A stretch of 64,000 nucleotides of DNA from Naegleria gruberi. Its lineage: Eukaryota. Location: the NCBI GenBank assembly GCA_000004985.1, contig GG738855.1; one strand, written 5' to 3'. The notes beneath the pieces are model-generated. The model was given only the letters and a program-made list of their open reading frames with translations. It was not told the origin of the DNA and did no database searches. The translations under genes and the position numbers were made by a program. This document shows, piece by piece, positions 11,218 through 63,866 of the stretch (positions within the stretch are counted from its first letter, which is position 1; the number at the start of each line of letters is the position of its first letter).

Positions 11218-11267
11218 NNNNNNNNNNNNNNNNNNNNNNNNNNNNNNNNNNNNNNNNNNNNNNNNNN
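11218..11267. other. Assembly gap (50 N), plus a single ambiguous base at 11303
   Basis: Run of n in the sequence. Confidence 0.99.
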
Positions 11268-41000: not shown

Positions 41001-44000
41001 GTCTCTAATGTATTCCTCGTAGTACATAAGTGATCTATAAAATGCTGAGTGATTAAATGCAGTTGCAGCAAGGGATCCAAGTGAAATACTTCTTAAAATC
41101 TTCTCTGCTTTTTCAACAGATTCCTTAAGAAGGCCTTTCTGATTCCTCATTTCAGGTGCGCTCATTTCAAACCATCTCTTAAGGTCATCAATAAGACAGA
41201 AAATTGTCTGAGCATGTTCAGTTGTCTGAGAATGTTCTTCAGCCTCTGACATTTTAAGGTCATGATCAATGACGGACATTATTTCTGTGCCAATCTCACC
41301 TCTATCAGAATCTTGACCAAAGAGTAGAACATGATGGACTAGATAGGGTAAAATAATTTTCACTAATACTTTGTCTGTACTAATCATAGGTCTTGCAGCT
41401 TTAAATATTTCCGATCTTTTAGTATTGAAATTTTTCATTTTTGAAATCAAGAACTTGGCCCAAGAGGCCATCCACTTGGAGATTGTAAGACTTCCTTTGA
41501 ATATAGGTAATTTGTATACGTGTTCAGTACCTGATACTCTCAAGCCTTGATCACCTGTTATCTTGTACTTTTTAGATATTTCTTGAAACACCTTTTTATC
41601 CAGTGTTTGAACTATTTTCAACAATTCTTGTCTTGTAAAATTAATTTTAGAAGTGTTACAAGGACTGACTTCTGTATGATCAAAAATTAACTCTATCAGC
41701 TCAACATCTGTCTTTTCAGTGTTGGCTACAATGGTTGGACCAATATTTAGAGCAGCTGGATCAATTGCTCCAATTTCACTTAAAGCAGTAGCTGAAAGTA
41801 ATTTAATAACCTCCTGTGTATCACTACAGCTTTTAAGTAAAGCTGTAACAAGTTTGTTAATAATATTATTTACACTCGACTCTGAAAGTTCAAACATTGA
41901 AATAATTTTTCTTTGAATTATTTCCTTATTTTCACTCAGAATACCTATAAGGGTTTCCAAAGCATTTTGCTTGACTGTAACATCTGATTGTTTAATACCA
42001 GGCAGAAGAAATTCTAACTTGGCATCTAGTGACAGTTTTCCAATCTGTTGCTCAATAAATTCATTAATAGGAGCCAGATCTTTTCTCTTGGATAAATGCA
42101 ATAGTGTGAAATCCAAACTTTTCTTGTTAGTCTGAATTAACTTTAGAATACATAAACATAATTTGGTTCCAAAATCAGAGGAATCAACAATTCTACAAAG
42201 AGCAGATATTATAGAGTTCATATTGTTAACTGGAATGTTCTTGTCATTAAAATGTTTCATCATGAAGGATTCGAAAGATTGTAACACATCTATTCTAAAT
42301 GAACATCTCAAAAGATGAGTTTGATAAATCTCCAATATTTCTTTAAAACATGTTCCAATTTCTGCTTCAAATACATCAATCATATTCACAACAATATGAA
42401 ATCTTTCTCTTTGTTTGATTTCAGATGCTCCCTTATCTTTGAAAACTTTCGAAATTTTGATTAAAATACCAGAAATATTCCCTTGTAATACCTTTTGCAC
42501 CATCTTTTTGTCACCAATACTATTTAGAAGTTTTTTCACTTTTCCTTTATGTTCATTATTAAGAAGTTTCATAATAATATTTTTAAAGGCTGTTGATATA
42601 ACTAAATTGGCTTGAACTTTTGTAATTTCAGCGGCCTTAATAAATTTTTCAAAACTTTCTAGTGGAGTTTTGTCTTTTTTGATAAATTCTGTAATAATAT
42701 TCTCAATATGTTCAATGATAATAGTAGAAAATTCGTTACTATTTGATAGTACTAATATTTGATTACGAAAACGTAATAACTCCCCCTCTACTGCCATCTC
42801 TGGCAGGACATGCTTTAATATTTTTGAAGCTATTTTTGAAAACTCCATATCAAATAGGGAAGATAAAATGTTTTGTAATTTGTTCTGATTGAAATACTTA
42901 ACCCAATATGCGAATAGAGTCATGAAGAACTCGTCTCCTATTGATGATGAAAGATACTTTAAAATTCCTTTGTTGTCGGCTAGTTTCTTCAAAGATATGT
43001 AAACAATTGATGATTGATCAAAATCTAGAGATACTTCAGTAAAGAAAAATAGGACATTTCTTAATGTCTTTGGGCAATTATCCAGTATGAGTTTCAGTAA
43101 TGGAATGATATAAAAGTAGTATTTGAGAGTCATCTCTTGATTATCTGTGTTTTCCTCATAAATTTTCCTGAGGAATGTTTTGATTTCGTCTACAAAAAAA
43201 TTAAAAGGGTCATCATGTAGTTGGTAAATACTTTCAATCGGAACTACTAGATTTCTATTTGGAGTTATCCATATAGAGAAAATTGATGTTGCGAAAGCAA
43301 CAATTTCAATGTCCTTATGCATTATCATTTTCATATACCTGACCATATCTTCAAAGTGTAAATCAATTTCCTCTTTTCTTATATTTTCAATAAAGAATGC
43401 AACACATTTGAGTAATTGTAATTGTGTTTTCTTTTCAACCTCAGAAGGTTCCAAAATAAAATCCCAATCACTTAGTCTAAAAACGGAATTATTTAAACTT
43501 TCTTGAATGGTTTCTTGTATTACCTCGCATATGATTGGCCTACAACTGGCACGAGAATAGAGCTTCCTTAGGTGATGGCTTACTTCTGCTAGGTCAAACA
43601 TTTTGAACCTAACAATTTCAGGGAAGCACTTTATCACTGCTTTTACTGATGCTTCACTCAGTTCTAGTTGTTCTAAAACTACTGTCTTACATGTTTCATC
43701 AAGAGTTAATTGATAAAATCGAATAATATTTTTCAGTGCTAACACCAAAATATCTTCTTCCATTTCTTTAGCATATAATTCTACTCTACTGATACAATAA
43801 AGTCTCAATTCATTAACTCTTTCAGGGTCAAGATGTTGTGGAATATTATTTTGGAATAAATTGTCTATCATGATAATTGGATGTTTTGAGTACTATCAAT
43901 GATTAACTTCTGAATCTAATGAGAACTTACTTCAGTACAATTTTTGGTATAATCAATCAATGAGTGAATGAGGTCAATAAGAGCCAAACTATCCTTTACT

Positions 44001-46312: not shown

Positions 46313-48250
46313 TTATTTTGTTCTCTTCCGAATTGTTTCCAAAATAGACACAAAGAAATTAGAAACACTCCTTCTGTCATCGAATAATTTTGGTATTGAT
46401 GTGAAAAAGTATCTACAATAATCTAGCAAGTAGGGAGTATTTACACGGGCAAGTAATTGGACTAAAAGTAAAAAGTCAGGCGCAACAGTAGAGGAAACCT
46501 TGATAACTTGTCTGTGATCTGTTCCAGCACTCAATTTTTCTACTTTTTCAATGTCCAAATTGTTATTTTTACAATATGTAACAAGTGAAACCTGAGATAA
46601 TGAATCCTGATTCCAAAGTGAAGACACAAGTTTGACAAATTCAGTATCCACACATTTTGAATTTTCTACAACAGTAGAAATGATTCTATATTTTTCTGGA
46701 GCCTCAAAACCATCATCTCTACTCAGTATTACCTTTTGAACTGCAAGGTCATCCTTACTAATGACCAGATCGAAAGATTTCATTCCATTAAAGTATTTCC
46801 TTTGAACCATTGAAGAATATTCGAAAATATCTGGCATTTGATGTCTTTCAGTATTCGTATAGGTCTTGTTATTCAATTTAAATCTTTTACCACAAGCTTT
46901 TACTCCATAACGTCCATCCTTATTTCCAATCTTCCAATCACTAATATTATCTTTCAATATCTTGATAAAATCTTCTTTCTTTCGTGGAAAATATATTTCC
47001 TCATTAACAGATATTCCAATATAGTAATTCAATTCGTTAGTTGATGGGTATCTAGCTTCATATAATCTTAATTGTTTAACTATTTGTTTCATGTCAGTAG
47101 TTTTCTTCATAACTCTGGTTTTCATTTCAAAAGTGACATCCTCTTCCTTATTAATCTCGCTTCTTGAGATTTTGTTAGCTTTCTTATTGGAAGAGTCCTG
47201 AATTACATTTTTAGAAGGGACATAATAACATGGTAGAATATACAGAGAATTAGTGTCAAAGTATTGAGAATCTAGTCCCTTGTCTCTATTATCAGTTAGT
47301 TCTAAATTCTTGTATTGGTTTGAGAATGCTCGTTGAATGATTTCTAAATTTTTAATATCCCGTGAAATTTCGTATAATATTCTTTTCATAAAATATGCAC
47401 TGATACTATTCCAAGAGATGGTTGAAGTAAGAGCTAATATTCGTTGAAAGTCTGGCTCTTGGCACTTTGAGCTCTCAATAAACTTATTAATATCATCACT
47501 AGAGTCCAATTTATCAATTCCTGATTTATCATCAAGATTAGAAATATAATATTCATAGGATTCTGGTGAAATTTCATTATTCTTCTTTAAATGATAAGCC
47601 AATCTTTGAAGATCTCTATGTTGACAATTTGAAATATGAAGGATGCTAGAAATTTGATCTGACAATTCAACACTTAATGCTTGATCCAGGCCTTTCACAA
47701 AAAGAATTCTTTCCTGTGGTAATGGTACAAAAGTCAAGTCGTGCATTTCAGTTTTGTCTTTCACTATCTTGATTAACATATCATAAGAATTGAAAGCAAT
47801 TTTTTTAAGAACCTTCACCTTGTTCCAAGATACAGTCTTTTTTGATTGTTGATCAGTGTCATACAAGATAACACAACTTACACTTGAAGAAAATTCAAAG
47901 CCTAGCAGAGAACTCACCTCTGTAGGATAGAGAGGCAAATAAATTTCTTGAGTATCGTTGAGAGAAATTCCGATCACTTGTATTGAAAAAACATCGTCAT
48001 TGTCACCCTCTCCTTCCAAATGGTAAACTCCAATATTTTGCATCAAAAAACTGTTATTAATTCTTTGTAATATTTCCACTTCTTCCAAAGCACATTTTCG
48101 CAAAGAAACTTTACCGTATCCAAGGAAATTATTGGGATCAAATTTATAACATCGAATGGATAGCTCTTTCATGTTCTCTGTTTGCTGATGCATTCTTCTT
48201 TTTGGCTTTGTTATTGTGTGGTTGGTGAATGTGTTGTGTAGGAACGCCAT
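46313..48250 (-). CDS. Hypothetical protein (645 aa)
   Basis: Uninterrupted ORF with ATG at 48250 rc in the aataaaATG context. No recognisable domain. Confidence 0.45.
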   Translation of the reverse strand: MAFLHNTFTNHTITKPKRRMHQQTENMKELSIRCYKFDPNNFLGYGKVSLRKCALEEVEILQRINNSFLMQNIGVYHLEGEGDNDDVFSIQVIGISLNDTQEIYLPLYPTEVSSLLGFEFSSSVSCVILYDTDQQSKKTVSWNKVKVLKKIAFNSYDMLIKIVKDKTEMHDLTFVPLPQERILFVKGLDQALSVELSDQISSILHISNCQHRDLQRLAYHLKKNNEISPESYEYYISNLDDKSGIDKLDSSDDINKFIESSKCQEPDFQRILALTSTISWNSISAYFMKRILYEISRDIKNLEIIQRAFSNQYKNLELTDNRDKGLDSQYFDTNSLYILPCYYVPSKNVIQDSSNKKANKISRSEINKEEDVTFEMKTRVMKKTTDMKQIVKQLRLYEARYPSTNELNYYIGISVNEEIYFPRKKEDFIKILKDNISDWKIGNKDGRYGVKACGKRFKLNNKTYTNTERHQMPDIFEYSSMVQRKYFNGMKSFDLVISKDDLAVQKVILSRDDGFEAPEKYRIISTVVENSKCVDTEFVKLVSSLWNQDSLSQVSLVTYCKNNNLDIEKVEKLSAGTDHRQVIKVSSTVAPDFLLLVQLLARVNTPYLLDYCRYFFTSIPKLFDDRRSVSNFFVSILETIRKRTK

Positions 48251-50430: not shown

Positions 50431-52317
50431 ATGGAAACTTGCGAAAATCATCACAAAAAAATGAATCAACTTCCCGAAGATTTGATCTTTTCAATTTTTC
50501 TCTATTGTCCCAAGACTAGTGATGTAGCAAATTTGCTACAATTGAATAGACATTGGTTGGGTGTGGCAAGATATGAAGCCTTGTGGCGGATGAGGTTTGC
50601 ATTCCATTTATCGGATAGAATTAAGAGTGAGGAGGAAAGATTGGCCGATAATCAACAAGCCTTGTCAACTTCTAGATCAAAGGGAACAATTAGAAAATTA
50701 AAATTACTTGCAAAGAGTCATGTTGATGAGGCTGAAAAATTGTACACCAGAGAGAAGGTTTGTGAACACGGAGGAGATGATGATAGAGAACAAGGTATTG
50801 ATTTTTATACTGGATTCCGTTTCTATACAATCTTTAAAAAGGAAATTGAAGGTTTAAGAATTGGAAAAATGACTGAGAAACTGATGGAGCTCATATCTTG
50901 TAATTATGAAAGGACTAATTATGCAGTTAATGATGAGAATATTTTGACTGATGAAAACCCATTGAAAAAGAAATGGAAACGGTTTATTGACTTTGTTGAT
51001 TCCAATTTGGTGCCAGACTCAGAGTCTGCTATCACAGATCAATATTACATGTTACAAAAAAATTGTACAGCTCAGTTTGCAACCAAATTTGAGGCAGATT
51101 TATCCTCAATGATGAAAAAATTGAGAAAGTATTTTTTCAAACTTTCAAAACCTAAAGAAGAACTCTATCAAGAATTTAACAATGCAGTTGCAAATATTTT
51201 GGAGCCAGTGAGGATACTGACAGACACCTCAAAATACAAGTATCCTATTGATGCTTACAAATGCCTTCCTGTAGCTGTTGAATCTATGAATTTTGATTTG
51301 GTACACTCACTTCTCGTTTCCATCAAGGATGATTGTAAAAGAACTGATTCTGAAAGACAATATCGTGACATTTCTGTGAAGAACGGAGATGCACTTGATT
51401 TTTGCAAAAAATTAATGACGTCATTTATGAACAAATCCTATCCAGTGGAAAATATTATGTATTTCTTGAATAGTATGGTTGTGATTTTTCCATCCTTGAT
51501 GCATGAATTGAGGAATAAGAACCATGCCAAGTTTAAATGTGATGAAGATTTATTGGCCAACTCAATAATTGATTGTAGAAATTACTATACAGGTATGGAA
51601 CTTTCTATGGAGCTCTTCGAGAAGGCAATTAGAGGTATGTAGAATTTAGTATTAATTTTTTGACTTTCAAAAGATTGGGGATTTCCAGAGGGTTCTAACT
51701 TTGTATCAAAGCTTTTGTATAGTTATCATAATGTCTGTAAAGTTTCAGATTTCACCTCCTCTCTGAGGAGAGATGTAATAGATACAGGAAAGCTTATTCA
51801 CCTTATTGAATTATATGAGGAGGTTTCTGGTGAAAAGTGTGATGATGAATTTGCATTCCTCTGTGCCGCATGTACCCCAAATGTTGAACTATGTAAATAC
51901 TTTACAGATACAAGAGGATTATCTTTGGAGAAAAAAATAACCAGTGGCATGCACGCACTGCCATATGGTTATATGAACTATTATTATCCACAGACCGAAG
52001 ACTTCATGTCAAAGATCGAATTTCTACTTGATAGAATGGATAATTTTTTCAATTATGAAATTGCTGACATAGTCAACACTGATCCACTTCTGAGATTTTT
52101 CTATTCCATTGCTTATGCTGATGCTAATCTTGTAGAAAATGAAGAAAAATATTTTAGAGTATTGAGAAAAATGTTAGACAAGAGACCAGACCTTGCTTAT
52201 AAAATTCGTGGTGATACTTCTGCTTTGGATATTATTGACCACCTAAAAGATGTAGAAGCGGTACAACAGGCAATTAAGATTATTGAGGAATACCAAAAGA
52301 AATGGGAAACAGAATAA
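50431..52317 (+). CDS. F-box domain protein in two exons
   Basis: Exon 1 is 50431..51634, with the N-terminal F-box LPEDLIFSIFLYCPKTSDVANLLQLNRHWLGVARYEALWRMRF. Exon 2 is 51689..52317. Both ORFs are in the same frame and the intron is 54 nt, a multiple of 3. The track start of the second ORF is TTG. Confidence 0.55.
51635..51688 (+). other. Intron (54 nt) of the F-box gene
   Basis: ATTAGAG|GTATGTAGAA donor and ..GGGGATTTCCAG|AG acceptor. Phase 1. It removes the in-frame TAG at 51640. Confidence 0.55.
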
Positions 52318-52348: not shown

Positions 52349-55300
52349 TTAAATCAAGAATACAGACAATACAGAAAATACAATAGCCAACAAGCCAGCA
52401 AAGTTTGTTGAACCAGCACTGATAACCTTACTCTTAGAGGTCTTTGGAGTGATAACAGTTGTACTCTTTGAGGCAGTTGGAGTGACAGTAGAAGTACCGG
52501 TAGCAATAGATCTACTGACAGCATAGGTACCACTTTGTGAAACTTGAATAGTGGCAGAAGAGGAAGAAACAATTGAAACACTACAAGATGAATCCTTACT
52601 GAAAACCTTGGTTGAGTTATTCCAAAGCAAACAATCATATTTGGAAGTACTTGTACCCAAAGTAAAGTTACCACTAAGAGTAATTCCAATCTTCACTCCA
52701 TTCAAGCTCAGCTTGGCACCAGTATCAGCATTTTCCAAGCTAAGTTCAAAGAGTTTGGACATAATGGTCATACTTTGAGAATAAATTGCCTTATACAAAT
52801 TGCTCAATTGCTTGATATTAACACCAATTGAAGTAATCGATGAGGAGAAGCCAGCAGTAAAGTTAGCAGGCAATTGATATTGAGTATTATTAGCAATAAC
52901 TTCACTGTAAGAAGCAGTAGAAGATGCAGAAATCTTCTTGGTATAAACAATAAATTCACTGCTTGAGGAAATTGAAGCTGCTTGATCGAGGAGTTGATTC
53001 TTACTCATGCCTGCCAATAAACTAGCAGCACTGTCCAAAACAGATTGTGAATCAGTGGCAAGAGATCTCAAAGCTTTAGCACTTCTTGTAGAAATACCAG
53101 AGCTGGATAAGATATTCTTAATAAAGTTTGATAAGGATGAAGCAATTGAATTGGCAAGATCACTTGAAATTGGCTTATCAGAATTTGCCAAAGCAGTCAA
53201 TGACGAAGCAGTAGATTGCAACATTTGACCTCTGGTATTGGAATCAACCAAATCCAAACTATTAACTGCAGCAGAAATGAATGAAATGGTTTCAGCAGCA
53301 TCTTCAACACTAACAGCAACTTGAGATTGCTTACTCAAAACTGAACTAATAACATTGACAAGGAAAGCCTTGACTTGAGTAACAACTTCAGCTGCCAAAT
53401 TTTGATTAGAAATTGAAGACAATGAAGAAACTGCAGCAGCACTACTAGCAGTAGAATCAGCAACGTTAGCACTTTGGTTAAGGAAATTCAATGCAGCTGA
53501 ACCACTTGTCAAATCAGGAGGATTAGAAATAACACTTGTTTCAATATCACTGAAAGCATTCTTTGAATCGAATACTCTAGCTCTAATTCTCAATTTCTTA
53601 TCAGCAGCTGGACTAGGTGGCAATTTAGCTTGAACTTGATTATCAGTAGTTCTACCAGACAATGTACTCCAGATTCCACGAATGGCATCATAGAAGAAGA
53701 ATTGATAAGTCAATGGAGAGTTAGAATCATACCATCCACTACATGTGACGGTAACAGTATCAAGACCAGCAGTACTACTTGCAGGACTGGCACTAATGGC
53801 TCCTGGCAATGGTGGGCTGTTAACAGTAAATTCGAATACAGAGTAACCACCTGCATTTTGAGTAGAAACATCAACACGAACTGAATAAGTAGTATCGGCA
53901 GAAAGTGCCTTACCAGAGATGAGCAATGAACGACCACTTGTCTTTGAAATAGTTGTTGATCCTTCACTCAAAGTGAAACCTTCAGTCAATGAAGACCAAG
54001 TGAAATTGATAGGATTTTCTTGAGCTGGAACATAATTCAATACATCAACAATGAGTGGAATATTTTCACCAAGTGGAATTGATGATGGAATCCAATCATT
54101 TCTAGTAAGTCTAATACTAGCAGTAAGAACTGCATAACCAACCATTGAAACATAAACTTCTTGTGATGCAGTTCTTGATCCCTTAGTATAGGTTATAACA
54201 ATTGAATATTCACCTTCTGGTAATGAAGCAGCAGGGAATGTAGCAACCTTATTAGAAATAACACCTGACATGCTGTATGAACAAGCAGAATTGGTTAATA
54301 AATTGGTACATGTTGCTGAGAATGTATCAGTGCTTGCATCTCTAGCTGGATCATAAGATCTAGTGAAATCAATAGCAAAACTTGTTGTAACAGAGGCCTT
54401 TCTAGTAGTACCACCAGTAATCATCAAGACAAGATCGGTAGCAATAACTTGCAAAGTAACAGTAGTTTCATAGGATGAAGCTGGTGATGCCTTAGCAACA
54501 GCTCTAACCTTGAATGAATAGGTACCAGCAGATGGGAAAGCATTTTCAAGGAAAATAGCAACTCTATTGTTATCTCTTAATGTCATAGTAGCTGTGGCTG
54601 GTCCAGATTCTTGTGACCAAGTCCAAATCAAAGTACGATCACTGAAGAAACAAGATGGATATTCAACAATTGGAAGAATAGAATATAAACTACCCATATT
54701 GACAGATTGAGAAGCACCACCTGGAATACGAACAATAACTGATGGAGTTGATGAAACAGTAAACTTGAAACTAGAAATGGCAGTTAAATTGAAACCATTT
54801 GTAACAGTGACAGACATGGTAAATTCACCATTTGATAATAAAGAAGCGTCCAAATATCCAAAACTTCCACCAACAAGAGCCAATGAAGCAGAAGCAGCAG
54901 TTAATGAACCAGGTCCAGAAATTGAGTAAACAAACTTCAAAGGTCTTCTATCAACAGAAACTGAAGCAGAAGCATCAAATAAGAAAGTAGTACATGAAGA
55001 AACATTCTTTGGACCACGCAATTCAGCACTTGGAGGTAAGAATGAAGATCCACTACTAGTAACTGAAACTGAACCAAATGCATTGTCATTATTTTTAACT
55101 TGGAGAGCATCACCTGGCAAAAGAGAAGCAGCACTACCCAAAATGATTTGGAATGAATTCTTTGAACGATCATCCCATCTACAAATTGGAGCAGAACCAA
55201 CAGCCTTCAATGATGATTCAGATAAAACAACAGCACAATCAATGTTGTTAGTTAATGAGGGGAATGCAAATTCGAATGAAACTCTATCACCAATAGAACC

Positions 55301-58300
55301 AAATGTTGCACTTGAACCAAGTTTGATATTACATTTGGATCCACTCCAACCAGAGGCACATGAACTACAAGATTCACCAGCATACATACCCAACAAGTTG
55401 TTGGAAATACAGGAACAAGCACCATTAGCAGTACAGAAACCATTTCCACTACATTTCTTCATTGGATCACAAGTAACATTACAACTAGGTCCATACCAAG
55501 AAGCAATACAAGTTCTACAGAAAGGACCAGCAAAGTTTCCAGTACAACTACAAGTAGTATCAGCATTACAAGTACCTCTTCCCAAACAAGTAACATTAGC
55601 ATTACAAGCTAAACTCTTACAATCAGCACCTCCATAATTAGGTTGACAAATTTCACAATTAGAGCCAGCCCAGAAACCACCTGCTTGAGTTGAGTTACAG
55701 ACACAGGTATTTGGACCAACACAAGCACCATGTCCCATACATGGATTATTTTCATAAGAACCACAAGTGAAAAGTTANNNNNNNNNNNNNNNNNNNNNNN
55801 NNNNNNNNNNNNNNNNNNNNNNNNNNNACAACTTTGAGGTTTGATCAAGACCAAAGCAAACAAAGAGTGAGCATGTTGATCCTGCATAACCCTTAGCACA
55901 GACATTACATTCATTACCAGCCCATCCATTCTTACAGACACATTTATCTGGACCTGAACATAAACCATTTCCAGAGCATGAACCAACAGTCTTTGAGTAA
56001 CAAACAAAGTTTTCACAATTTGCACCATATCTGGTTGTATTACATTGACAAACGTCTTGAGCAATACATTTACCACCACCTGAACAAACGCTCAAGCTTG
56101 ATGCAGCAACACCCTTACAAGTAATAACTGTAGTATTTGTGTTGGAATTTGAATTAATTTCACAATTCTTTCCAGTGAATCCTGCATTACATTGACAATA
56201 ATCAATATCAATACATTTACCATTTCCTGAACAAACCTTAGAATTATTTGACAAGATGCCAAAGCATGATAAAATGTTTTGGTTATTGTTGTTGTTAATT
56301 TCACAACTCTTTCCACTGAAACCACCATTGCATTGACAAGCATCAATACCAATGCATTTACCGTTTCCTGAGCATACATTAGTATTATTGGCTAATAAAC
56401 CAAAACATGATGGGGCAATTTCACAATTCTTTCCATTGAAACCACCATTGCATTGACAAGTGTCATTGGAAATACATTTACCGTTTCCTGAACAGACCTT
56501 AGTATTGTTTGACAAGAAACCAAAACATGATGGCATTGGTTGATTGTTGTTGTTGTTATTAATTTCACAATTCTTTCCATTGAAACCACCATTACATTGA
56601 CAAGTGTCATTGGTAATACATTTACCATTTCCTGAGCAAACCTTAGTATCATTGGCTAACAAACCAAAGCATGATGGCATTGGTTGATTATTGTTGTTAT
56701 TATTAATTTCACAATTCTTTCCAGTGAAAGAAGGATTGCATTGACAAGTGTCATTGGCAATACATTTACCGTTTCCTGAACATGCATTAGTATTATTGGC
56801 CAATAAACCAAAACATGATGGCATTGGTTGGGTACCATTTCCATTATTTTCATTATTTGGATTAGGTGGCAATTCGTAATTCATTGGGTAGTAAACAGTA
56901 TCAATAGCAATATCAAGTTGAGCACAAATACTGGCACCATTGACAGAGATTGGAATATTCATTTCAACTGGACCAGATCCGGTATCCTTAGCAAAACCAA
57001 GCTTACTTGGAAGAGGTGTTTTGAGAGGTGAAGGAACCTTATTCAAACACAATTTAACACCAGTCATATCATTATCGAATGAGTAACCATTACCAAATAA
57101 AACACCAACGGCTGATTTGGTTGCATTATTAACAATTACAACAGTGTTAGGATTTCTAAAAGTAGTTCTAGCTTCAACAAATTTAACATCATTGAATGAT
57201 ACTTGAGGAGGAACAGTAATAAAACCAAATGATAAAGAATCAGAAACAGTATTCTTGTCTGCTCCAGCAGGAACAACAATATGACTATCAGTAAATGTTA
57301 AAAATTTCATATTGCTACAAGCTGGATCAGAACCATCACCACATTTACATGAAGTGAATGTGATAACATTTTCTTGCATATTTGTCAAACAGGTCATCTT
57401 CTTAGCAACCAAATCTGGCTTCATATTAGCAACCATTGTAGTATAAACCTTAGCTGGAATTTGAGATTCAGGATTCAATGACCAAACCCATTTTCTTGAG
57501 GCAACAGGTTTAGTAACATCCCATTTCAATTCCTTTTGAGAAGCCTTAACCCAGTTACCATTTCTGAAGTTGTAAACATTCTTAATTACAACACCATTTG
57601 TACATGAACTATCCTTACAAGTTGAAAGAGAATTGAAAAGACCATTTTGTGGATTGAAACAACCCTTGAATGCATGACAGGCATCAACATTATTTGGAGG
57701 AGCCAATTCCCAATATCCTAAAGGACAGAAAGTATTTGGAACTGCATTGAGAGGAACAGTGAAATTATTGTTACTAATTGAAACATTAAACTTGGCAGCA
57801 ACTTGAGCACTAGAATCTTTACACAAACACATATCCATCAACTTGTCATATGAACAAGTGGCTGGACAATCTGCCAAAACAGAAGGAACAGCACAAATAA
57901 CACCATGAACAGGATAACCTTCACATACACCATTAGCAGTACAAACTTCAGTTGAGTTGCAATCAGGACAATTAATATCACATTCATAAATATTATCGCA
58001 ATTACTCTTAAGCATGGCTTGATTTGCCTTACCACACATAACGTTTGTTGGACAAGTAGTGTTATCATAGAAATAACCATCAGCATCAGAATCAATCATT
58101 GAGCAATTCAATGTACTATTGCAGTAAAAACAACCTTCATTACCACAGCTAGTGAATGGGCAACTGGTAACACTTTCACAAACCTCTTTAGTAACTTGTG
58201 GGACTACAGCATTAGTAGCAAGATCGATACATTTTGGAATCATGACATTGTTAGAAATAACCAATGGAACAATATCTTCCTTAGTAGAATTAATTAACAA

Positions 58301-58950
58301 ACCAAAAACAGAAGAAAAGGAAGGAAGGGCCATAGGTCCATAATTACCCTTAGTATTCAAACAATCAACAAATTCATCTGGAGTGGATGACTTGTCACAG
58401 CCAGAACTCTTGATAATTGCAATTTCATTATCAATAGCACTTTGAATGGAAGAACCATCACACAAACCAACCTTAACTTCTGCTGNGAGGAATGCCAATG
58501 AAGCTTCAACTCTAACATCTTGGAACAATTCATATTACTCATTGAATTGATATCATAAAATGCAAAAGTAGTATCTCTTCTGGTGCAACATTGGTTATTA
58601 GAATTACCACAACATGGATCATTCTTCCATGCAGCATCAAGTGGAGAAATATTACAGGCACCTGAGAAATCATTCAAGGTAATTGGAGTTTTGTTATTCA
58701 AGGCGAGTCTTTGGGCAACTGTACAAGTACCTTCAGTATTTACATTGGTTCCTAGGAAGGCAAAGGCAGAAGCTCCCTTAGCAATTTTGAAAGCAGGTTG
58801 TGCATTAAAACCAGCATATTCAGCCTTAGCTTGAGCAGGAGTACAAAGTGGCTCTACATTATTTACAAGTGCTACTAAGATAGTAACTAGAATACACACA
58901 ACAACTAGTGAGACGTAGCTCTTTAGATTGTATTTACAGTGTATGTACAT
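52349..58950 (-). CDS. Giant (~2200 aa) secreted or GPI/TM-anchored cysteine-rich EGF-repeat surface glycoprotein. The model spans an N gap and a frame disruption near 58486.
   Basis: N-terminal signal peptide (SLVVVCILVTILVALVNN) and a Cys-rich head. There are at least five near-identical tandem EGF modules (PSCFGLLANNT.VCSGNGKCI.NDTCQCNGGF.GKNCEINNNNNN), then further EGF-like modules (CSGNGLCSGPDKCVCKNGWAGNECN). A ~1000-aa S/T/A-rich stalk follows, and a C-terminal hydrophobic tail (NFAGLLAIVFSVLSVFLI) is consistent with a GPI-anchor signal or TM. Three track ORFs (58357..58950, 55775..58528, 52349..55738) are collinear on the minus strand. Confidence 0.7.
55778..55827. other. Assembly gap (50 N) inside the EGF-repeat gene
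   Basis: Run of n. Confidence 0.99.
56155..56830 (-). repeat. Tandem array of five ~126-138-nt near-identical coding repeats (EGF modules with poly-Asn linkers) inside the giant surface-protein gene
   Basis: Repeated nucleotide blocks, visible on the plus strand as the recurring ggaaacggtaaatgtatt / ttgacaagtgtcattgg / catgatggcattggttg strings. They encode QPMPSCFGLLANNTNACSGNGKCIANDTCQCN.. five times with few substitutions. Confidence 0.75.
58483..58538 (-). other. Putative 56-nt intron (or sequencing-error frameshift) containing the ambiguous base at 58486
   Basis: On the minus strand, TCAATGA|GTAATATG donor and ..CATTGGCATTCCTCnCAG|CAGAAG acceptor. Removing it joins the signal-peptide/Cys-rich ORF (58950..58539) in frame to the 917-aa ORF. 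Length mod 3 = 2, matching the observed frame offset. Confidence 0.4.
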
Positions 58951-59335
58951 TTTTTTTGTTTTCGAATAGAAGTTGTAGTGTGGCAGATTGATTTATATAC
59001 CCCAACCCCAACCGGTTGATTGTAATAGAGATGATTTTCTGAGAGACGTTGTTGCTACCAATAGTTCATGTGTACAGTCGCTGATGGTACTAGATGGAGA
59101 GTTTTGTATTACATTAAACTTTTGTGCACTACAACGACTGAGAGATAGCAGAGATGAATGGCATAGATAATAGAAAAATCCATATTTGTATTCCTTTTTT
59201 GAAATGACAATTCCAAAAAACAAATTAAATCACCTCCCATCACTATTGTAATTGAAAATGGAGGGAAATATGTAGTTCAAAAAGGAGTTGTCGAAAAAGT
59301 TCAAGTGTCTCACTAACCAAATAATTAATTGATTT

Positions 59336-61591
59336 CTATTGAGATGTATAGGTTTCTGGTACGTTCAATAAGAATACAACACCATCATATCCACTCAATA
59401 AACACCAATTTTTGAGATCCTCATGTTTGGATGGGTGATATAAGCATCTGTGCATTGCCAATCTGATATCTGGTGTTAGCTTTTCATTTTTGAATCTAAA
59501 AGGTAGACGAGTGAATTTTTCGCCTGGGTTGTCTGCATCTTTAAAGTGATAAGGGAGTGAGTAGCATACATCAGCCTTATTTGACAATTTGTATGTCATT
59601 TCTGGATCAGTTTCAGAATAGTCATTATCATTTGTGACAAGTTCCACTTGTAAAAGCAAATCATCAACTCTATTATCGACTGCTCTTCTCTTCTTTCCCA
59701 TAGAATCTTGTTCTAATGATAATACTTCTATTCTTCCTGTTGCTGTAGCAACTAGAATACTAGAACGAGTTGATGAAATAGAAATATCCCATATTGGACC
59801 ATCACATGTAGAAAAAAGTTGGAAAGCATTTTCAACAGCATCAAATTGTCTAATGGTACCGTCGTGTGAAACAATAAGGAGAGCATTTGATTTTTCTGGA
59901 AACGCCACTCCAGTCATCCAAAAACGGTTTCCACTCAAAGAGGCATAATAAGGATAGAAAATATCCCTCACGTCCCAAATTTTGAAAAATCCATCATTAC
60001 TACATGTTGCAAAAATATATTCGTTCATAGTAGGATCAAACCAAGAGATACTTCGAATGGATAGGTCATTAGTTGGATGGCTATGTCCAAAAACAGAGAC
60101 TGCATGTTCGAGAATATTTCCCTCAGTATTATTAAGAACCTTCCAAAGTGAAATTGTACCATCATGATAACCACTCACAAAATATTTTAAACTAGGAGAC
60201 CATGAAATAGTGTATGGTACCTTTAGAGAGGCATTATTTTCAGAATCATGCTGTAATTGAGAGTAAACTTCTGGTTTGAGCGATATTACAAGCCTTTCAT
60301 CTTTTCCTAGTTTAATATTATTCTTCGATTCGTATTCTGATAAAATCTGTGAGTAGTGAGGCACGTTCAAAATAATGACAGTTCCATCAGAACATGCACA
60401 AGCTAATATTCCAAGTCTTTCATTTTTTACATATGAATTTGGCATCCATTTCAAATCCCAAATAAATCCATGATCGTGCTCAATATAGAATTGGACATAT
60501 GGATCCCTATTCAATTGCTTATCCGAAAGTTTTCCAAAATTCCAAATTTGAATTTTTCCACAATGTTCAACATCTGAAATTGTTGGAACTTTCACATTAC
60601 TATGACTAGCATCGAATAATTCTCCTTTCATTGTTGGCTTTCCTGTTTTATGAAATGATGAATGAAGAGTATGAGGTGCAATGGCAACAAGTTGTTCCTC
60701 CTCAGCTGAAGGTCGACTCACCCAATCCAAAGCCCAAATAGGTGCTCCAATATTTAACATGGCAGCTGAACATTCAGTACCAACTCTTGTTGCTGTATGA
60801 AGATCCAAATTAATTTCACTACATCCTCTTTCATTAGTATCACATTCAGTGTATCCTTTTCTTTCTTTTTGAGGTTCTGTGTTTAATAGAATAGTCTTGG
60901 AAAACTTTTTTTGTGCTTGTTGTGGAAAAGTGACAACATCAGTGATGGATATTTTCCTAATATTTACAATTGACGAAACTCTATCTGGACATGAAGATGC
61001 CGAGTCCAAACTTTCATTTGTGATATAATCAGTCAAATAACGAACATCTTTTGTTTTTTTCTTTGTTGATGACTTTTTTGTAGAGGCTTTCTTTGTTCGG
61101 GTGGGTGTTTTAGTTGGTGTTTTTGGTTCGGATTTACTTTTAGTTGGTGTTTTTGTTTTTGTTGGTGTTTTTGGCTTCTTTGTTGCTGATGATTTCTTTT
61201 TCTTCTTTGATTTTGGTTCGTATTCTTCCTCTTCTTCCTCTTCTGAATCTAATTCACTTACTACTTCTTCCTCTTCTTCATTATCGGAGGGAACATATTC
61301 CTCTTCCTTTTTCCTCTTCTTTTCNNNNNNNNNNNNNNNNNNNNNNNNNNNNNNNNNNNNNNNNNNNNNNNNNNNNNNNNNNNNNNNNNNNNNNNNNNNN
61401 NNNNNNNNNNNNNNNNNNNNNNNNNNNNNNNNNNNNNNNNNNNNNNNNNNNNNNNNNNNNNNNNNNNNNNNNNNNNNNNNNNNNNNNNAAGCTCGTGGTT
61501 TTCTTGTTCTCTTTGATCGGGTTGTTCTTGGTGGAGTTGAAGCAGATTCATCATCTTCATTCTCTGTTTCTTCCTTCTTTTTTCTTGGCAT
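59336..61591 (-). CDS. WD40-repeat protein with a K/E/T-rich disordered N-terminus (interrupted by a 164-N gap), possibly TFIIIC tau91/GTF3C2- or WDR76-like
   Basis: ATG at 61591 rc in the tataaaaaATG context. N-terminal KTPTKTKTPTKSK basic repeats. The C-terminal ~450 aa have WD-like blocks (DGTVIILNV, HDGTISLWKV, SNDGFFKIWDV, SHDGTIRQFD). Confidence 0.45.
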   Translation of the reverse strand: MPRKKKEETENEDDESASTPPRTTRSKRTRKPRAXXXXXXXXXXXXXXXXXXXXXXXXXXXXXXXXXXXXXXXXXXXXXXXXXXXXXXXEKKRKKEEEYVPSDNEEEEEVVSELDSEEEEEEEYEPKSKKKKKSSATKKPKTPTKTKTPTKSKSEPKTPTKTPTRTKKASTKKSSTKKKTKDVRYLTDYITNESLDSASSCPDRVSSIVNIRKISITDVVTFPQQAQKKFSKTILLNTEPQKERKGYTECDTNERGCSEINLDLHTATRVGTECSAAMLNIGAPIWALDWVSRPSAEEEQLVAIAPHTLHSSFHKTGKPTMKGELFDASHSNVKVPTISDVEHCGKIQIWNFGKLSDKQLNRDPYVQFYIEHDHGFIWDLKWMPNSYVKNERLGILACACSDGTVIILNVPHYSQILSEYESKNNIKLGKDERLVISLKPEVYSQLQHDSENNASLKVPYTISWSPSLKYFVSGYHDGTISLWKVLNNTEGNILEHAVSVFGHSHPTNDLSIRSISWFDPTMNEYIFATCSNDGFFKIWDVRDIFYPYYASLSGNRFWMTGVAFPEKSNALLIVSHDGTIRQFDAVENAFQLFSTCDGPIWDISISSTRSSILVATATGRIEVLSLEQDSMGKKRRAVDNRVDDLLLQVELVTNDNDYSETDPEMTYKLSNKADVCYSLPYHFKDADNPGEKFTRLPFRFKNEKLTPDIRLAMHRCLYHPSKHEDLKNWCLLSGYDGVVFLLNVPETYTSQ
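61325..61488. other. Assembly gap (164 N)
   Basis: Run of n. Confidence 0.99.
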
Positions 61592-61652: not shown

Positions 61653-63479
61653 TTACAATTTGGAGACGAATTGATAAACAAATTGGCTTTGTCCATTTTC
61701 TTCCTTCCATTCTCTTTGAACATTTGAAACAACTTCCTTCAATCTTGGGTAGGCACAATCAACTTGCCAGTTTCCGAAAATATCACTCAAGATGGAGTCA
61801 ACATACCAGATTGGAGCAGTTGACAATTCCTTCTCGAAATCCTTGATAGCACAAGATGCACTTCCTTGCCATCCACCCTTTTGTAAAACAATGCTGGCAA
61901 CCTTTCTTTCAATAACATCACTGAACTTGTTCATGTCATTGGCACTAATCTTACCATCTTGAACACCTGGTTGATCATATGCATTAATAGCGCGGAAAGC
62001 AGCCAAAATTGAAACAATTCTTTCTTCCAAAGCAATCATCATACCAATGTTGAACATATCACATTGTTCATATGTACATGAGAGGAATGGTTTACCATTC
62101 TTATACAGAGCATTTTCAGTACCCTTAATGAAACCAAGCATTTGTCTACCCATACTCAAATAGCTTGTTCCCTTCTTGGAATATTCAGTCAAATCACTGG
62201 CAGCAACCTTTTCACCGGCAAGTTCTTGCTTATCGGTTGGGTCAAGAACTGAATAATCAGAGTTTCTCTTCAAATAGTAAACAAATTTAACAATGCAATC
62301 ATTGATACCCTTTTGAACTTGTTGCATGAAGGCATGTTGTTCACCAGTACCAACACCACCAAAAACAGTTTGACCTTCTGGACTTTCAACACCAGAATTT
62401 TCAGAGAATTGTTTACCCAAACTTTCCATATACAATTGTTGTAAATAGTGAGCAAATTCACGGAGTGAATCAGAATAGCCAAGAACAATCAAATTCTTTC
62501 TACCATGTCTCTTTTGATAATGATCCATAAGAATAGCTGTAACTAAGGCTGGATTCTTCAATTGATTTTCAACTGTATCAAATCTTCTGGTCATTTCATC
62601 CATGTAAGATTGACCACGCAAGAATCCAGCAAAGTCCAATTTAGCAAAAGCAGCTGGAACCATTCCAATAGCACTACCAACACTAGTTCTACCACCAGTT
62701 TCTTCGTTCATGTAGAATGTATGTAAGAAGTGATTCTTTTGAGCAAACTTGTCAAAGTTACTATTCTTTGTAGTAATAGCAATATTATATGAACCAATAT
62801 TACCATTTTGTGCAATACCTCTGTCCAATAATAATCTATTGAAAGTATTCATATTTCCCTTAGTTTCGGCAGTACCACCACTCTTTGACATGTTAACAAG
62901 TAAACTTTCGCTCAACTCCAAAACACCCTTCTCTCCAAAAAGTTGATCAAAACTATCAGAGTCAGTATTACTGACAAAGTATAACTTTGGCAAACCTTCT
63001 TTTTCTTGCAAATCATTGAAATAAATACCCTTCATGGCAACACATAACAACAATGGTCCCAAATAAGATCCACCAATACCATTGAAAATGACATTCTTGT
63101 AAGCCTTTCCTGTTTGTTCATTCTTTAATTGACCACTAATAATTTTACCAACTTTTTCATTAATATCATTCCATAACTTTAAACTATCATCCAATGATTT
63201 TCCAGCAACTGTTGATGAAGCCAAACGTAAATTATAGTGATCAACACTACGATTTTCTGATTCCGATGCAATAACAGTCTTATTTACAATTTGTCCATTT
63301 TCAATTTCTTTAATCTTTTGAGCAGCAACTTTAACTGCATGAACATAATTTTCCTTCAATAGTGTTTGAATAGTTGTTGTTGGTGATGCTGTTTGAGACA
63401 AGAATCCAGAAATATTAAAAGTAAAATTAGTTTCCTTGTCGTGGAAAATATATCCAGGTGTAGTGTAGAGTTTATCCAT
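61653..63479 (-). CDS. Glucose-6-phosphate isomerase (PGI), divergent bacterial/cyanobacterial-like type with an N-terminal extension
   Basis: SIS-domain signatures NVIFNGIGGSYLGPLLL, NMSKSGGTAETKGNMN, FYMNEETGGRTSVGSAIGMVPAAF, LQQLYMESLGKQF and VGTGEQHAFMQQVQKG. The track start at 63557 is GTG; the first ATG with an A-rich context is at 63479. Confidence 0.75.
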   Translation of the reverse strand: MDKLYTTPGYIFHDKETNFTFNISGFLSQTASPTTTIQTLLKENYVHAVKVAAQKIKEIENGQIVNKTVIASESENRSVDHYNLRLASSTVAGKSLDDSLKLWNDINEKVGKIISGQLKNEQTGKAYKNVIFNGIGGSYLGPLLLCVAMKGIYFNDLQEKEGLPKLYFVSNTDSDSFDQLFGEKGVLELSESLLVNMSKSGGTAETKGNMNTFNRLLLDRGIAQNGNIGSYNIAITTKNSNFDKFAQKNHFLHTFYMNEETGGRTSVGSAIGMVPAAFAKLDFAGFLRGQSYMDEMTRRFDTVENQLKNPALVTAILMDHYQKRHGRKNLIVLGYSDSLREFAHYLQQLYMESLGKQFSENSGVESPEGQTVFGGVGTGEQHAFMQQVQKGINDCIVKFVYYLKRNSDYSVLDPTDKQELAGEKVAASDLTEYSKKGTSYLSMGRQMLGFIKGTENALYKNGKPFLSCTYEQCDMFNIGMMIALEERIVSILAAFRAINAYDQPGVQDGKISANDMNKFSDVIERKVASIVLQKGGWQGSASCAIKDFEKELSTAPIWYVDSILSDIFGNWQVDCAYPRLKEVVSNVQREWKEENGQSQFVYQFVSKL

Positions 63480-63866
63480 TTTGTTATTGACTAAAGTAAT
63501 TTGATGATGAATGTGATAATAGTTGGTATGTTGAGTTGATACTTCTTGGTACAACACTTACAATTTTTTTTAAACTTGTTTGCTAAGCTGAAGGTTTCAA
63601 AGTGACTTTTTGAATCTTTTGTTGTTGCGACTATCGACCCATTTAAGGTATTTTCGACGTGAGGATGCATTTTTTATTTAATTAATTTCTCCTCATTTGA
63701 TTGAGGCGATGAAGCATTGATGAATTCGTGAGGATAAAGTTATTCAGGCATGCTATTTAATATTGCTCCGATTTGTTGCATTAGTTGGAAGTGAAAAATT
63801 GTGAAAAGGATCAATAATAATAATTTAATGATTTATTTTTGATGGCAATAAATAATAGGTGTGGAT

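What the first reader, a model, noticed from the sequence alone, without database searches (positions are those of the whole stretch)
52349..58950. About 2200-aa secreted EGF-repeat surface glycoprotein with a recently amplified tandem array, mucin-like stalk and probable GPI signal
It is the largest gene in the window. It has a signal peptide, a Cys-rich head, at least five near-identical 42-46-aa EGF modules joined by poly-Asn linkers, more degenerate tenascin-type EGF modules, a ~1000-aa S/T/A-rich stalk and a C-terminal hydrophobic tail. This domain grammar is typical of cell-surface adhesion or recognition molecules in amoeboid protists. The near-identity of the repeats at the nucleotide level (56155..56830) implies recent unequal crossing-over or ongoing concerted evolution, and the copy number is likely polymorphic. 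The same repetitiveness probably caused the assembly gap at 55778..55827 and the ambiguous base at 58486.
Basis: partly seen in the sequence, partly recalled or inferred. Interest (0 to 1): 0.55.

Follow-up and report, generated by a model that had tools for sequence, protein, structure and literature searches.

The report
Naegleria surface protein: EGF, REJ, dead GAIN
This is one large, already catalogued but mis-modelled Naegleria gruberi gene for a secreted, probably lipid-anchored surface protein whose supposed "mucin stalk" is really the REJ and GAIN modules of the polycystin-1 and adhesion-GPCR families, with the self-cleavage site lost.

Summary
The window is Naegleria gruberi NEG-M. 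The three minus-strand ORFs (58950-52349) are one gene of about 2,210 aa. The N. fowleri orthologue runs colinear across both breaks: a missing base at 58522/58523 and the 50-N gap.

The public model XP_002680062.1 ("basal body protein NBP family", 1,915 aa) lacks the first 206 aa, including the hydrophobic leader. It also bridges the gap with a false intron.

**Confirmed:**
- the hydrophobic N-terminus and the Cys-rich head;
- five similar EGF modules with poly-Asn linkers, plus at least six more EGF modules;
- a terminal hydrophobic tail preceded by small residues, which looks like a GPI signal.

**Not confirmed:**
- The GPS motif is degenerate. The Cys pair is lost and His-Leu-Thr has become Gln-Ser-Gly, so canonical autoproteolysis is unlikely.
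- The EGF units are 79-89% identical in DNA, with Ks 0.16-0.98. They are neither recent nor homogenised.
- The gap and the N lie outside the repeat array.

**Verdict:** a new variant of a known kind, of modest interest.

The parts
52349..58950 (-). Whole gene: one coding region of about 2,210 aa, read as three ORFs because of two assembly defects
   Evidence: ORFs. The N. fowleri orthologue is colinear across both breaks. The existing model P0004/XP_002680062.1 maps to 58333-52352.
58858..58950 (-). N-terminal leader (aa 1-31): Lys-containing start, then a 17-aa hydrophobic core VSLVVVCILVTILVALV. Probably a signal peptide, possibly a signal anchor
   Evidence: Hydropathy 3.3 over aa 13-29. 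The orthologue P0154 has an equivalent hydrophobic leader before the conserved LC(D/T)P. No predictor was run.
56864..58857 (-). Cys-rich 'head' of about 665 aa, found only in the Naegleria orthologue pair. Fold unknown
   Evidence: No Pfam family even at E 10. 35% identical to N. fowleri with most Cys invariant. The AlphaFold model was unusable, pLDDT 31.8.
58522..58523 (-). Frame break: one base appears to be missing in a CC run (tgt tcc|caa gat). It joins ORF A (..NMNCS) to ORF B (QDVRVEAS..)
   Evidence: Frames read. The orthologue reads straight through (SCISDVSFEAGLSF). The ambiguous base at 58486 lies 36 nt away.
58486..58486 (.). Single ambiguous base (N), in unique head sequence
56154..56830 (-). 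Tandem array of five EGF modules. The cores are at 56815-56708, 56671-56564, 56527-56420, 56407-56300 and 56266-56159, joined by poly-Asn linkers
   Evidence: TRF periods of 144/120/141 nt with 81-88% matches. Family D1. 79-89% DNA identity. Ks 0.16-0.98. Pfam EGF_Teneurin and EGF_2.
55828..56153 (-). EGF module 6 (core 56119-56012, about 55% identical to units 1-5), module 7 (8-Cys type) and the start of module 8, which is cut by the gap
   Evidence: Read directly from the sequence.
55778..55827 (.). Assembly gap of 50 N. By comparison with N. fowleri it hides about 27 aa, the rest of EGF module 8
55775..55777 (-). In-frame TAA at the first three bases after the gap. Probably a contig-edge error (one change from TCA, CAA or GAA), but a real stop is not excluded
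   Evidence: Sequence. The orthologue has Gln here (CEQFTC).
55325..55774 (-). EGF modules 9-11 (8-Cys type with a C-x2-C extension)
   Evidence: These modules are conserved with N. fowleri, yet part of them is treated as intron in the public model.
54539..55324 (-). Beta-rich region of about 260 aa before the REJ match, with weak PKD/Ig-like signals
   Evidence: K319L-like_PKD E 3.8e-5 and PKD_4 E 0.005, both below the Pfam cut-offs.
53441..54538 (-). REJ domain (Pfam PF02010)
   Evidence: 136.2 bits against a cut-off of 25, E 1.7e-39, profile positions 49-440 of 452.
52514..53548 (-). GAIN domain: helical subdomain A followed by beta-sandwich subdomain B
52514..52633 (-). Degenerate GPS motif CLLWNNSTKVFSKDSSCSVSIVSSSSATIQVSQSGTYAVS. 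The first Cys, the Trp and the second Cys are kept, the Cys-x-Cys pair is lost, and His-Leu-Thr is replaced by Gln-Ser-Gly
   Evidence: There is no Pfam GPS match even at E 10.
52403..52513 (-). Ser/Thr/Lys/Pro-rich linker of 37 aa. This is the only stalk-like segment
   Evidence: Sequence.
52349..52402 (-). C-terminal hydrophobic tail FAGLLAIVFSVLSVFLI plus the stop codon. It is preceded by the small residues S-A-G-S (within ISAGSTN) and has no cytoplasmic residues. Probable GPI-attachment signal
   Evidence: Hydropathy 2.75. The same design occurs in the orthologue and in at least six paralogues, whereas other paralogues have a longer TM followed by a Lys-rich tail.

Best explanation
**What it is.** The locus is a single Naegleria gruberi gene for a cell-surface glycoprotein of about 2,210 aa. 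From N to C it has these parts:
- a hydrophobic leader;
- a Cys-rich head of about 665 aa, seen only in Naegleria;
- at least 11 EGF modules, six of them a lineage-specific expansion;
- a PKD-like region plus a REJ module;
- a GAIN domain whose GPS motif has lost the second disulfide and all three cleavage-site residues;
- a 37-aa Ser/Thr-rich linker;
- a terminal hydrophobic peptide with the look of a GPI-attachment signal.

**How it most likely works (inferred).** The protein enters the secretory pathway, and its many Cys become disulfides. It is N-glycosylated (34 sequons), and the tail is exchanged for a GPI anchor. The rigid EGF-REJ-GAIN rod then holds the head away from the membrane as a binding or recognition surface. 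The GAIN domain cannot self-cleave, and no 7-TM or 11-TM body follows it. It therefore serves as a structural membrane-proximal module, not as a tethered-agonist switch. Any signalling would have to pass through a partner, for example paralogues that carry a transmembrane segment.

**Shown versus inferred.** The one-gene structure, the EGF, REJ and GAIN identities and the degenerate GPS are shown. Leader cleavage, GPI anchoring, surface location, lack of cleavage and an adhesion or recognition role are inferred.
For: **Organism and existing model:**

**One gene:**
- The orthologue P0154 aligns to reconstruction residues 35-690 in a single HMMER domain (E 1.4e-110) that spans the frameshift.
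- Over the whole length it is 48% identical across 1,969 aligned positions, and the alignment crosses the gap.

**Domains:**
- EGF families and REJ (136 bits).
- Degenerate GPS: an invariant Gly sits at the position of the nucleophilic Thr in 13 of 13 members of the subgroup.

**Membrane topology:**
- Only two hydrophobic segments, one at each extreme end.
- The GPI-like tail is conserved in P0005, P0007, P0009, P0010, P0014, P0021 and P0028/P0156. Sister paralogues P0012, P0015 and P0018 instead have a TM of about 25 aa followed by a KKKK tail.

**Selection:** the EGF units are under purifying selection, with Ka/Ks mostly 0.1-0.45.
Against: - No signal-peptide or GPI predictor could be run. 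The 17-aa hydrophobic core is long for a cleaved signal and could be a signal anchor.
- The frameshift and the in-frame TAA at the gap edge could be real lesions, which would make this a pseudogene.
- The deposited name ('basal body protein NBP family') points to an intracellular or flagellar-apparatus location. I could neither trace nor exclude that.
- The head domain has no recognisable fold, so the ligand-binding role is a guess.
- No expression or localisation data were available.
- Non-canonical cleavage of the GAIN domain cannot be excluded from sequence alone.
Confidence: 0.7

Rival explanations
1. It is an EGF-repeat adhesin carried on a ~1000-aa mucin-like Ser/Thr/Ala stalk. The near-identical EGF array was amplified recently or is being homogenised, and it caused the assembly gap and the ambiguous base.
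For: - The C-terminal half is rich in Ser (18%), Ala and Thr.
- The EGF array is real.
- It is larger than in N. fowleri.
Against: - The 'stalk' matches Pfam REJ at E 1.7e-39.
- The region after it folds as a GAIN domain.
- Ks between units is 0.16-0.98 and DNA identity is 79-89%.
- The gap and the N lie outside the array, and the window has other gaps in non-repetitive sequence.
Confidence: 0.05
2. Same architecture, but anchored by a C-terminal transmembrane helix, or by the N-terminal hydrophobic segment as a signal anchor, rather than by GPI.
For: - The terminal segment of 17 hydrophobic residues could just span a membrane.
- The N-terminal core is long, at 17 aa.
- Several paralogues are true single-pass TM proteins.
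Against: - No residue follows the tail, whereas TM paralogues have a helix of about 25 aa plus a Lys-rich stop-transfer tail.
- Small residues (S-A-G-S) sit 18-22 aa from the C-terminus, as expected for an omega site.
- The design is conserved in the orthologue and in at least six paralogues.
Confidence: 0.15
3. A protein of the flagellar apparatus, as the deposited name 'basal body protein NBP family' suggests. It could be a flagellar-base or flagellar-membrane REJ protein, in the way that polycystin-1 and sea-urchin REJ proteins are ciliary or flagellar.
For: - The names in the public records of this gene and of paralogue P0156.
- From established knowledge, REJ-family proteins in animals are ciliary or sperm-flagellar membrane proteins.
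Against: - No paper explaining the name was found.
- The architecture is wholly extracellular: 122 Cys, EGF modules, 34 N-glycosylation sequons, and no cytoplasmic segment. It cannot be a structural component of a cytoplasmic basal body.
- Most paralogues are simply named 'predicted protein'.
Confidence: 0.08
4. A recently inactivated pseudogene. On this view the frameshift at 58522/58523 and the TAA at 55775-55777 are real.
For: Two reading-frame lesions exist in the assembly as given.
Against: - Each lesion lies beside an assembly-quality flag: the N is 36 nt away, and the TAA is at the very edge of the gap.
- The remaining 6.5 kb has no stop in the correct frames.
- All Cys and domain signatures are conserved with N. 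fowleri.
- Ka/Ks between the EGF units is below 1.
Confidence: 0.07

Closest known systems
Sea-urchin sperm receptor for egg jelly, suREJ1 (from my own knowledge of the family; no sequence comparison was made here)
   Same: A large secreted ectodomain with EGF module(s), then a REJ module, then a GPS/GAIN region close to the membrane. It has a minimal membrane anchor rather than a channel-like body, and a presumed ligand-recognition role at the cell surface.
   Different: - suREJ1 has C-type lectin domains, a single EGF module and a true TM helix. This protein has at least 11 EGF modules, a novel Cys-rich head, a GPI-like tail and a GPS without cleavage residues.
- There is no evidence of orthology. 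The similarity lies in the shared modules.
Polycystin-1 (PKD1) and PKD1-like / PKDREJ proteins
   Same: The REJ domain (PF02010) is followed immediately by a GAIN domain. More distant relatives found here have REJ, a canonical GPS and 8-11 hydrophobic segments.
   Different: - No 11-TM body, PLAT domain or channel-like region.
- The GPS lacks the Cys-x-Cys pair and His-Leu-Thr.
- Membrane attachment is by a terminal hydrophobic peptide only.
GAIN domains of adhesion GPCRs (BAI3 4dlo, CELSR1 8vy2, GPR126 6v55, latrophilin 4dlq/8vti)
   Different: - Sequence identity is 8-14%.
- No 7-TM domain follows.
- The residue at the nucleophile position is an invariant Gly.
- A 37-aa Ser/Thr linker, rather than a short Stachel-to-TM1 connection, follows the last strand.
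Naegleria fowleri 7TM-RGS proteins with GPS motifs and EGF-like repeats (PMC9283941)
   Same: Same genus. The extracellular regions combine EGF-like repeats with a GPS motif, and they are interpreted as contact or adhesion sensors.
   Different: Those proteins are seven-pass proteins with a cytoplasmic RGS domain and a recognisable GPS. This protein has no TM body, no RGS domain and a degenerate GPS. Direct homology between them was not tested here.
N. gruberi paralogues: XP_002678591.1 'basal body protein' (P0156), XP_002680115.1 (P0007), XP_002682682.1 (P0010), XP_002676264.1 (P0014), XP_002672407.1 (P0021). Also N. lovaniensis XP_044552523.1 (P0009)
   Same: EGF modules, REJ, a GAIN domain with the same degenerate '..sTG.Y.V' GPS, a Ser/Thr linker and a GPI-like tail.
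   Different: They lack this gene's Cys-rich head and have other N-terminal modules. Identity over the GAIN region is 17-21%.

Membership tests
REJ-module proteins (polycystin-1 / suREJ / PKDREJ family) | REJ domain recognised by the family profile (Pfam PF02010) above its curated cut-off | tested here: met
   136.2 bits against a cut-off of 25, E 1.7e-39, profile positions 49-440 of 452.
REJ-module proteins (polycystin-1 / suREJ / PKDREJ family) | GAIN domain directly C-terminal to the REJ module | tested here: met
   [not shown]
REJ-module proteins (polycystin-1 / suREJ / PKDREJ family) | Canonical GPS motif: four Cys, two Trp and the His-Leu-Thr/Ser/Cys cleavage triad | tested here: not met
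   - Only two Cys and the first Trp are kept.
- Cys-x-Cys has become Ile-x-Val, and His-Leu-Thr has become Gln-Ser-Gly.
- There is no Pfam GPS match at E 10.
REJ-module proteins (polycystin-1 / suREJ / PKDREJ family) | Transmembrane region (1, 2 or 11 helices) after the GPS, with PLAT and a channel-like domain in PKD1-type members | tested here: not met
   The only hydrophobic segment after the GPS is the last 17 residues, and nothing follows it. There are no PLAT or PKD_channel matches.
Adhesion GPCRs | GAIN domain fused to a seven-transmembrane domain, with a tethered agonist exposed by cleavage | tested here: not met
   The GAIN fold is present. There is no 7-TM domain and the cleavage triad is absent.
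EGF-repeat extracellular proteins (teneurin/tenascin-type EGF) | Repeated 6- or 8-Cys EGF modules above the family cut-offs | tested here: met
   EGF_Teneurin 60.7 bits (cut-off 24.3), EGF_2 51.2 bits (22.1) and EGF 23.2 bits (21.5). EGF_TEN is below its cut-off, at 46.9 against 65. Eleven modules were counted by their Cys pattern.
   The ~990-aa region consists of folded REJ and GAIN domains. Only 37 aa (52403-52513) are a Ser/Thr/Lys/Pro linker.
GPI-anchored proteins | N-terminal ER signal, a C-terminal hydrophobic peptide with no cytoplasmic residues, and small omega, omega+1 and omega+2 residues about 20-25 aa from the end | tested here: inconclusive
   - The sequence features are present by eye: S-A-G-S, then 18-22 residues ending in a hydrophobic run.
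- They are conserved in the orthologue and in paralogues.
- No GPI or signal-peptide predictor was available, and no biochemistry.
Basal-body proteins (the deposited name) | Experimentally shown localisation to basal bodies, or homology to a known centriole component | not testable with these tools
   The name occurs only in the records and no source paper was found. No centriolar Pfam family matches.

The most novel reading that the evidence does not exclude
Heterolobosean amoebae carry a family of free-standing REJ-GAIN ectodomains. They are tied to the membrane only by lipid, and the GAIN autoproteolytic site has been systematically dismantled (invariant Gly at the nucleophile position). 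If so, the REJ-GAIN pair is an ancient, self-sufficient extracellular module that can work without a 7-TM or 11-TM partner and without cleavage. It might act as a co-receptor, a decoy or a mechanical spacer for transmembrane paralogues, possibly at the flagellar base as the unexplained 'basal body protein' name hints.
Probability: 0.3. Interest if true: 0.5.

Novelty: new variant of a known kind. Interest (0 to 1): 0.35.

Why it matters
- **Evolution of the GAIN domain.** GAIN domains are normally discussed as the membrane-proximal, self-cleaving switch of adhesion GPCRs and polycystin-1. GAIN domains were previously reported in Dictyostelium and Tetrahymena (PMC3321182). A Naegleria subfamily that keeps REJ and GAIN but drops both the cleavage chemistry and the transmembrane body extends that distribution to Heterolobosea. 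It would also show that the module has a cleavage-independent structural or binding role. The relatives found here form a graded series of GPS decay, which is useful for thinking about which parts of the motif serve folding and which serve catalysis.
- **Annotation.** The public gene model is wrong. It lacks the first 206 aa, has a false intron that removes about 61 aa plus the gap content, and carries a probably misleading name. That would mislead secretome or surface-proteome predictions for Naegleria, including comparisons with the pathogen N. fowleri.
- **Limits.** This is still a predicted protein with no functional data, and each of its modules is well known.

Tried and rejected
**Searches that led nowhere**
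- The search for homologous proteins was run three times: on the REJ-to-C-terminus piece, on the head, and on a two-sequence head alignment. It returned nothing each time. It did not even return the 100%-identical public model, which is a cluster representative in that same collection. Its silence therefore says nothing about how widely the family is distributed.
- The look-up of encoding contigs on two neighbouring ORFs found nothing.
- phmmer of the C-terminal half against PDB sequences found nothing. The GAIN link needed an intermediate profile and a structure model.
- Pfam at E 10 on the head and on the post-REJ region gave only noise.
- The head-domain AlphaFold model, built from a two-sequence alignment, had pLDDT 31.8 and was discarded.
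- The afdb50 fold library was unavailable.
- Ten literature searches did not reveal the origin of 'NBP'. The last one hit only Nbp35 iron-sulfur proteins. The Cell 2010 genome paper is not held.

**Readings considered and rejected**
- An intron at the ORF A/B junction. The only GT..AG pair is 20 nt apart.
- The public model's intron across the gap. Its 'intronic' sequence encodes EGF modules that are conserved in N. fowleri.
- A second family member inside the window. Paralogue P0007 matches only this gene.
Full report
**Source and setting.** Two neighbouring ORFs are identical to Naegleria gruberi NEG-M proteins XP_002679947.1 and XP_002680050.1 on a 613-kb scaffold. The window is AT-rich (31-37% G+C) and gene-dense. 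It carries ordinary eukaryotic genes: CRM1, ATR, site-1 protease and phosphoglucose isomerase. It is draft sequence, with five N gaps and two single Ns in 64 kb.

**Checking the observation.**
- The three minus-strand ORFs, the 50-N gap at 55778-55827 and the N at 58486 are as described.
- I joined ORF A (to ..NMNCS) to ORF B (from QDVRV..), and ORF B to ORF C across the gap. This gives 2,182 aa with 122 Cys and 34 N-x-S/T sequons.
- The joined protein has only two hydrophobic segments, aa 13-29 and the last 17 residues.
- Tandem Repeats Finder and the repeat finder both report an array at 56154-56830, with periods of 144, 120 and 141 nt and 81-88% matches.
- The array encodes five 36-aa EGF cores (C-F-G-x7-C-S-G-N-G-K-C-x5-C-x-C-x8-C-E). 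Four of the five cores are followed by a poly-Asn or Asn/Ser-rich linker. The third and fourth cores are joined by only four residues (I-A-P-S).
- A sixth core is about 55% identical to the others.

**One gene, and the public model is defective.**
- A full HMMER scan of 1.84 billion representatives with the C-terminal 991 aa found a 100%-identical 1,915-aa protein, P0004. This is XP_002680062.1 / EFC47318.1 / D2V765, named "basal body protein NBP family".
- The same scan found a 55%-identical N. fowleri protein, P0005, which has a longer model P0154 of 2,016 aa.
- The public N. gruberi model starts at an internal Met (MALPSFSS..), so it lacks 206 N-terminal residues. It also joins ..KNGWAG to GFWAGS.., treating the gap and its flanks as an intron.
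- The N. fowleri protein reads straight through both places. Across the A/B junction it has ..CCTRRT..SCISDVSFEAGLSF.. (single HMMER domain, E 1.4e-110). Across the gap it has one complete EGF module..CFGVDSLNKYVCSGNGACVAPNKCQCKNGAFGERCEQFTC...
- In the DNA, the A/B break is what a single missing base in a CC run at 58522/58523 would produce (tgt tcc|caa gat). It lies 36 nt from the ambiguous base.
- The gap hides about 27 aa. The in-frame TAA forms the first three bases after the gap and is one change away from Ser, Gln or Glu codons.
- I therefore read both lesions as assembly defects. I leave about 7% for a real pseudogene.

**What the 'stalk' is.**
- Pfam places a REJ domain at residues 413-778 of ORF C (136 bits, E 1.7e-39). 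Weak PKD-like signals lie before it.
- The 345 residues after the REJ match have no Pfam hit. They end in C-L-L-W-N-N-S-T-K-V-F-S-K-D-S-S-C-..-S-G-T-Y-A-V, which resembles a GPS motif.
- Among the 150 best relatives, 31 have a canonical GPS (C-x-C-x-H-L-T-x-F). Several of these are followed by 8-11 hydrophobic segments.
- Nine of the 150 relatives matched my pattern for the degenerate form, and inspection of C-termini added five more. Those whose source I looked up are all Naegleria proteins.
- I aligned the post-REJ region of 13 degenerate-type proteins (A1) and of 12 canonical-type proteins (A2). hhalign relates the two at 97.2% probability and E 3e-11 over 261 columns, with the Cys-Trp-Cys columns in register.
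- The A2 profile hits solved GAIN domains, with ADGRL3 at E 5e-16.
- AlphaFold on A1 gave pLDDT 78 and pTM 0.74, with eight helices followed by a 13-strand sandwich.
- Foldseek's seven best PDB matches are all GAIN domains (BAI3 at E 1e-11, then CELSR1, BAI2, latrophilin-1 and -3, GPR126).
- The C-terminal half is therefore PKD-like/REJ plus GAIN. Only 37 residues (52403-52513) form a Ser/Thr/Lys/Pro linker.

**State of the cleavage site.** A joint alignment of the last ~60 residues of both groups puts this protein's I-Q-V-S-Q-S-G-T-Y under C-S-C-N-H-L-T-S-F. Four things follow:
- The Cys pair of the second disulfide is gone.
- His has become Gln and Leu has become Ser.
- The nucleophilic Thr has become Gly. 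That Gly is invariant in all 13 members of the subgroup.
- The aromatic residue at +3 is kept.

By the established mechanism of GAIN autoproteolysis (PMC3321182), this domain should not cleave. Other relatives show intermediate states: P0036 keeps HLT but has lost the Cys pair, while P0039 and P0050 keep the Cys pair but have lost HLT.

**Membrane anchorage.**
- The protein ends ..KVISAGSTNFAGLLAIVFSVLSVFLI. Small residues lie 18-22 positions from the end, and nothing follows the hydrophobic run.
- The same design is found in the N. fowleri orthologue and in paralogues P0007, P0009, P0010, P0014, P0021 and P0028/P0156.
- Sister paralogues P0012, P0015 and P0018 instead have a helix of about 25 residues followed by KKKK and a short tail.
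- This contrast is the usual signature of GPI-anchored versus transmembrane family members. No predictor or experiment backs it here.

**The EGF array.**
- Units 1-5 are 79-89% identical in DNA and 72-89% in protein.
- Nei-Gojobori Ks is 0.16-0.98 and exceeds 0.5 in seven of the ten pairs, and Ka/Ks is mostly 0.1-0.45. There are only about 21 synonymous sites per unit, so the values are noisy.
- N. fowleri has two modules where N. gruberi has six.
- The array is therefore a lineage-specific expansion, but an old one under constraint. It is not a recent amplification and not a homogenised array.
- The gap lies more than 320 nt from the array, in modules that are at most 76% alike. The N at 58486 lies in unique head sequence.

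**The head.**
- Residues ~32-700 have no Pfam family even at E 10.
- Among the 150 relatives, only the N. fowleri orthologue matches them, at 35% identity with nearly all Cys conserved.
- The two-sequence AlphaFold model was unusable, with pLDDT 31.8. The fold and any ligand remain unknown.

**Interpretation.**
- The best-supported reading is a secreted, heavily disulfide-bonded and glycosylated surface protein.
- A lipid anchor and a non-cleaving GAIN-REJ-EGF rod would present a Naegleria-specific head for binding or recognition.
- The protein works like the ectodomain of suREJ or polycystin-1-type proteins, but it fails two defining features of that family: a canonical GPS and a transmembrane body. 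It is also not an adhesion GPCR.
- GPS-bearing, EGF-rich seven-pass RGS proteins have been described in N. fowleri (PMC9283941). GAIN domains have been reported in Dictyostelium and Tetrahymena (PMC3321182).
- The modules are therefore not new in protists. What is unusual is the combination of a GPI-type anchor with a dismantled GPS.
- The deposited 'basal body protein' name could not be traced and does not fit a wholly extracellular architecture. A flagellar-membrane location would fit what is known of REJ proteins in animals, but that is speculation.

**Verdict.** The gene is already catalogued, though mis-modelled and probably misnamed. It is best described as a new variant of the REJ-GAIN ectodomain kind, of modest interest (0.35).

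Noticed in passing
window 52352-58333 (public model XP_002680062.1): The deposited N. gruberi gene model lacks the first 206 aa, including the hydrophobic leader. It also uses a false GT..AG intron (..KNGWAG|GFWAGS..) that removes about 61 aa of conserved EGF sequence plus whatever the gap hides.
   Followed up: yes
records of P0004 and P0156: This gene is named 'basal body protein NBP family' and a paralogue with the same EGF-REJ-GAIN-GPI design is named 'basal body protein'. No paper explaining 'NBP' was found, and the name conflicts with a wholly extracellular architecture.
   Followed up: partly
relatives P0004-P0153: REJ-GAIN relatives come with three anchor types: a GPI-like tail, one TM plus a Lys-rich tail, or 8-11 TM. 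They also show a graded loss of the GPS: canonical CxCxHLT, then loss of either the Cys pair or HLT, then loss of both.
   Followed up: partly
[not shown]
   Followed up: no
tool behaviour (against 33, 35): The word-indexed protein search returned no hit in three tries. It missed even the identical protein that the exhaustive HMMER scan and the cluster look-up show to be in the same collection.
   Followed up: partly
window 11218-11267, 11303, 13818-14294, 19091-19140, 61325-61488: Four further N gaps and one further single N lie in the window, several of them inside long ORFs (for example 13757-17596 and 59336-61591). Neighbouring gene models are therefore likely to be affected as well.
   Followed up: no
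window 58992-58999: A TATA-like tatataaa lies 42 nt upstream of the start codon at 58950. It is a possible core promoter element.
   Followed up: no
window 50431-52317 (+) and 52349: The F-box gene (50431-51642, NAEGRDRAFT_47209) is followed by a 200-aa ORF at 51715-52317 on the same strand. That ORF ends only 32 nt from the stop of the target gene, so the two 3' ends converge closely. Whether the two plus-strand ORFs are one gene was not checked.
   Followed up: no
window 22378-26238 (+) and 46313-48250 (-): Two long ORFs (1,286 and 645 aa) have no Pfam family at E 1e-5.
   Followed up: no
window 4157-6820, 13757-17596, 26285-29386, 32364-35456, 35487-37436, 38031-43871, 61653-63557: Ordinary housekeeping genes surround the locus: an AAA ATPase, site-1 protease (MBTPS1-like), a WDR62/MABP1-like WD40 protein, CRM1/exportin-1, a PPR protein, ATR kinase and phosphoglucose isomerase. 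There is no cluster of related surface-protein genes.
   Followed up: partly
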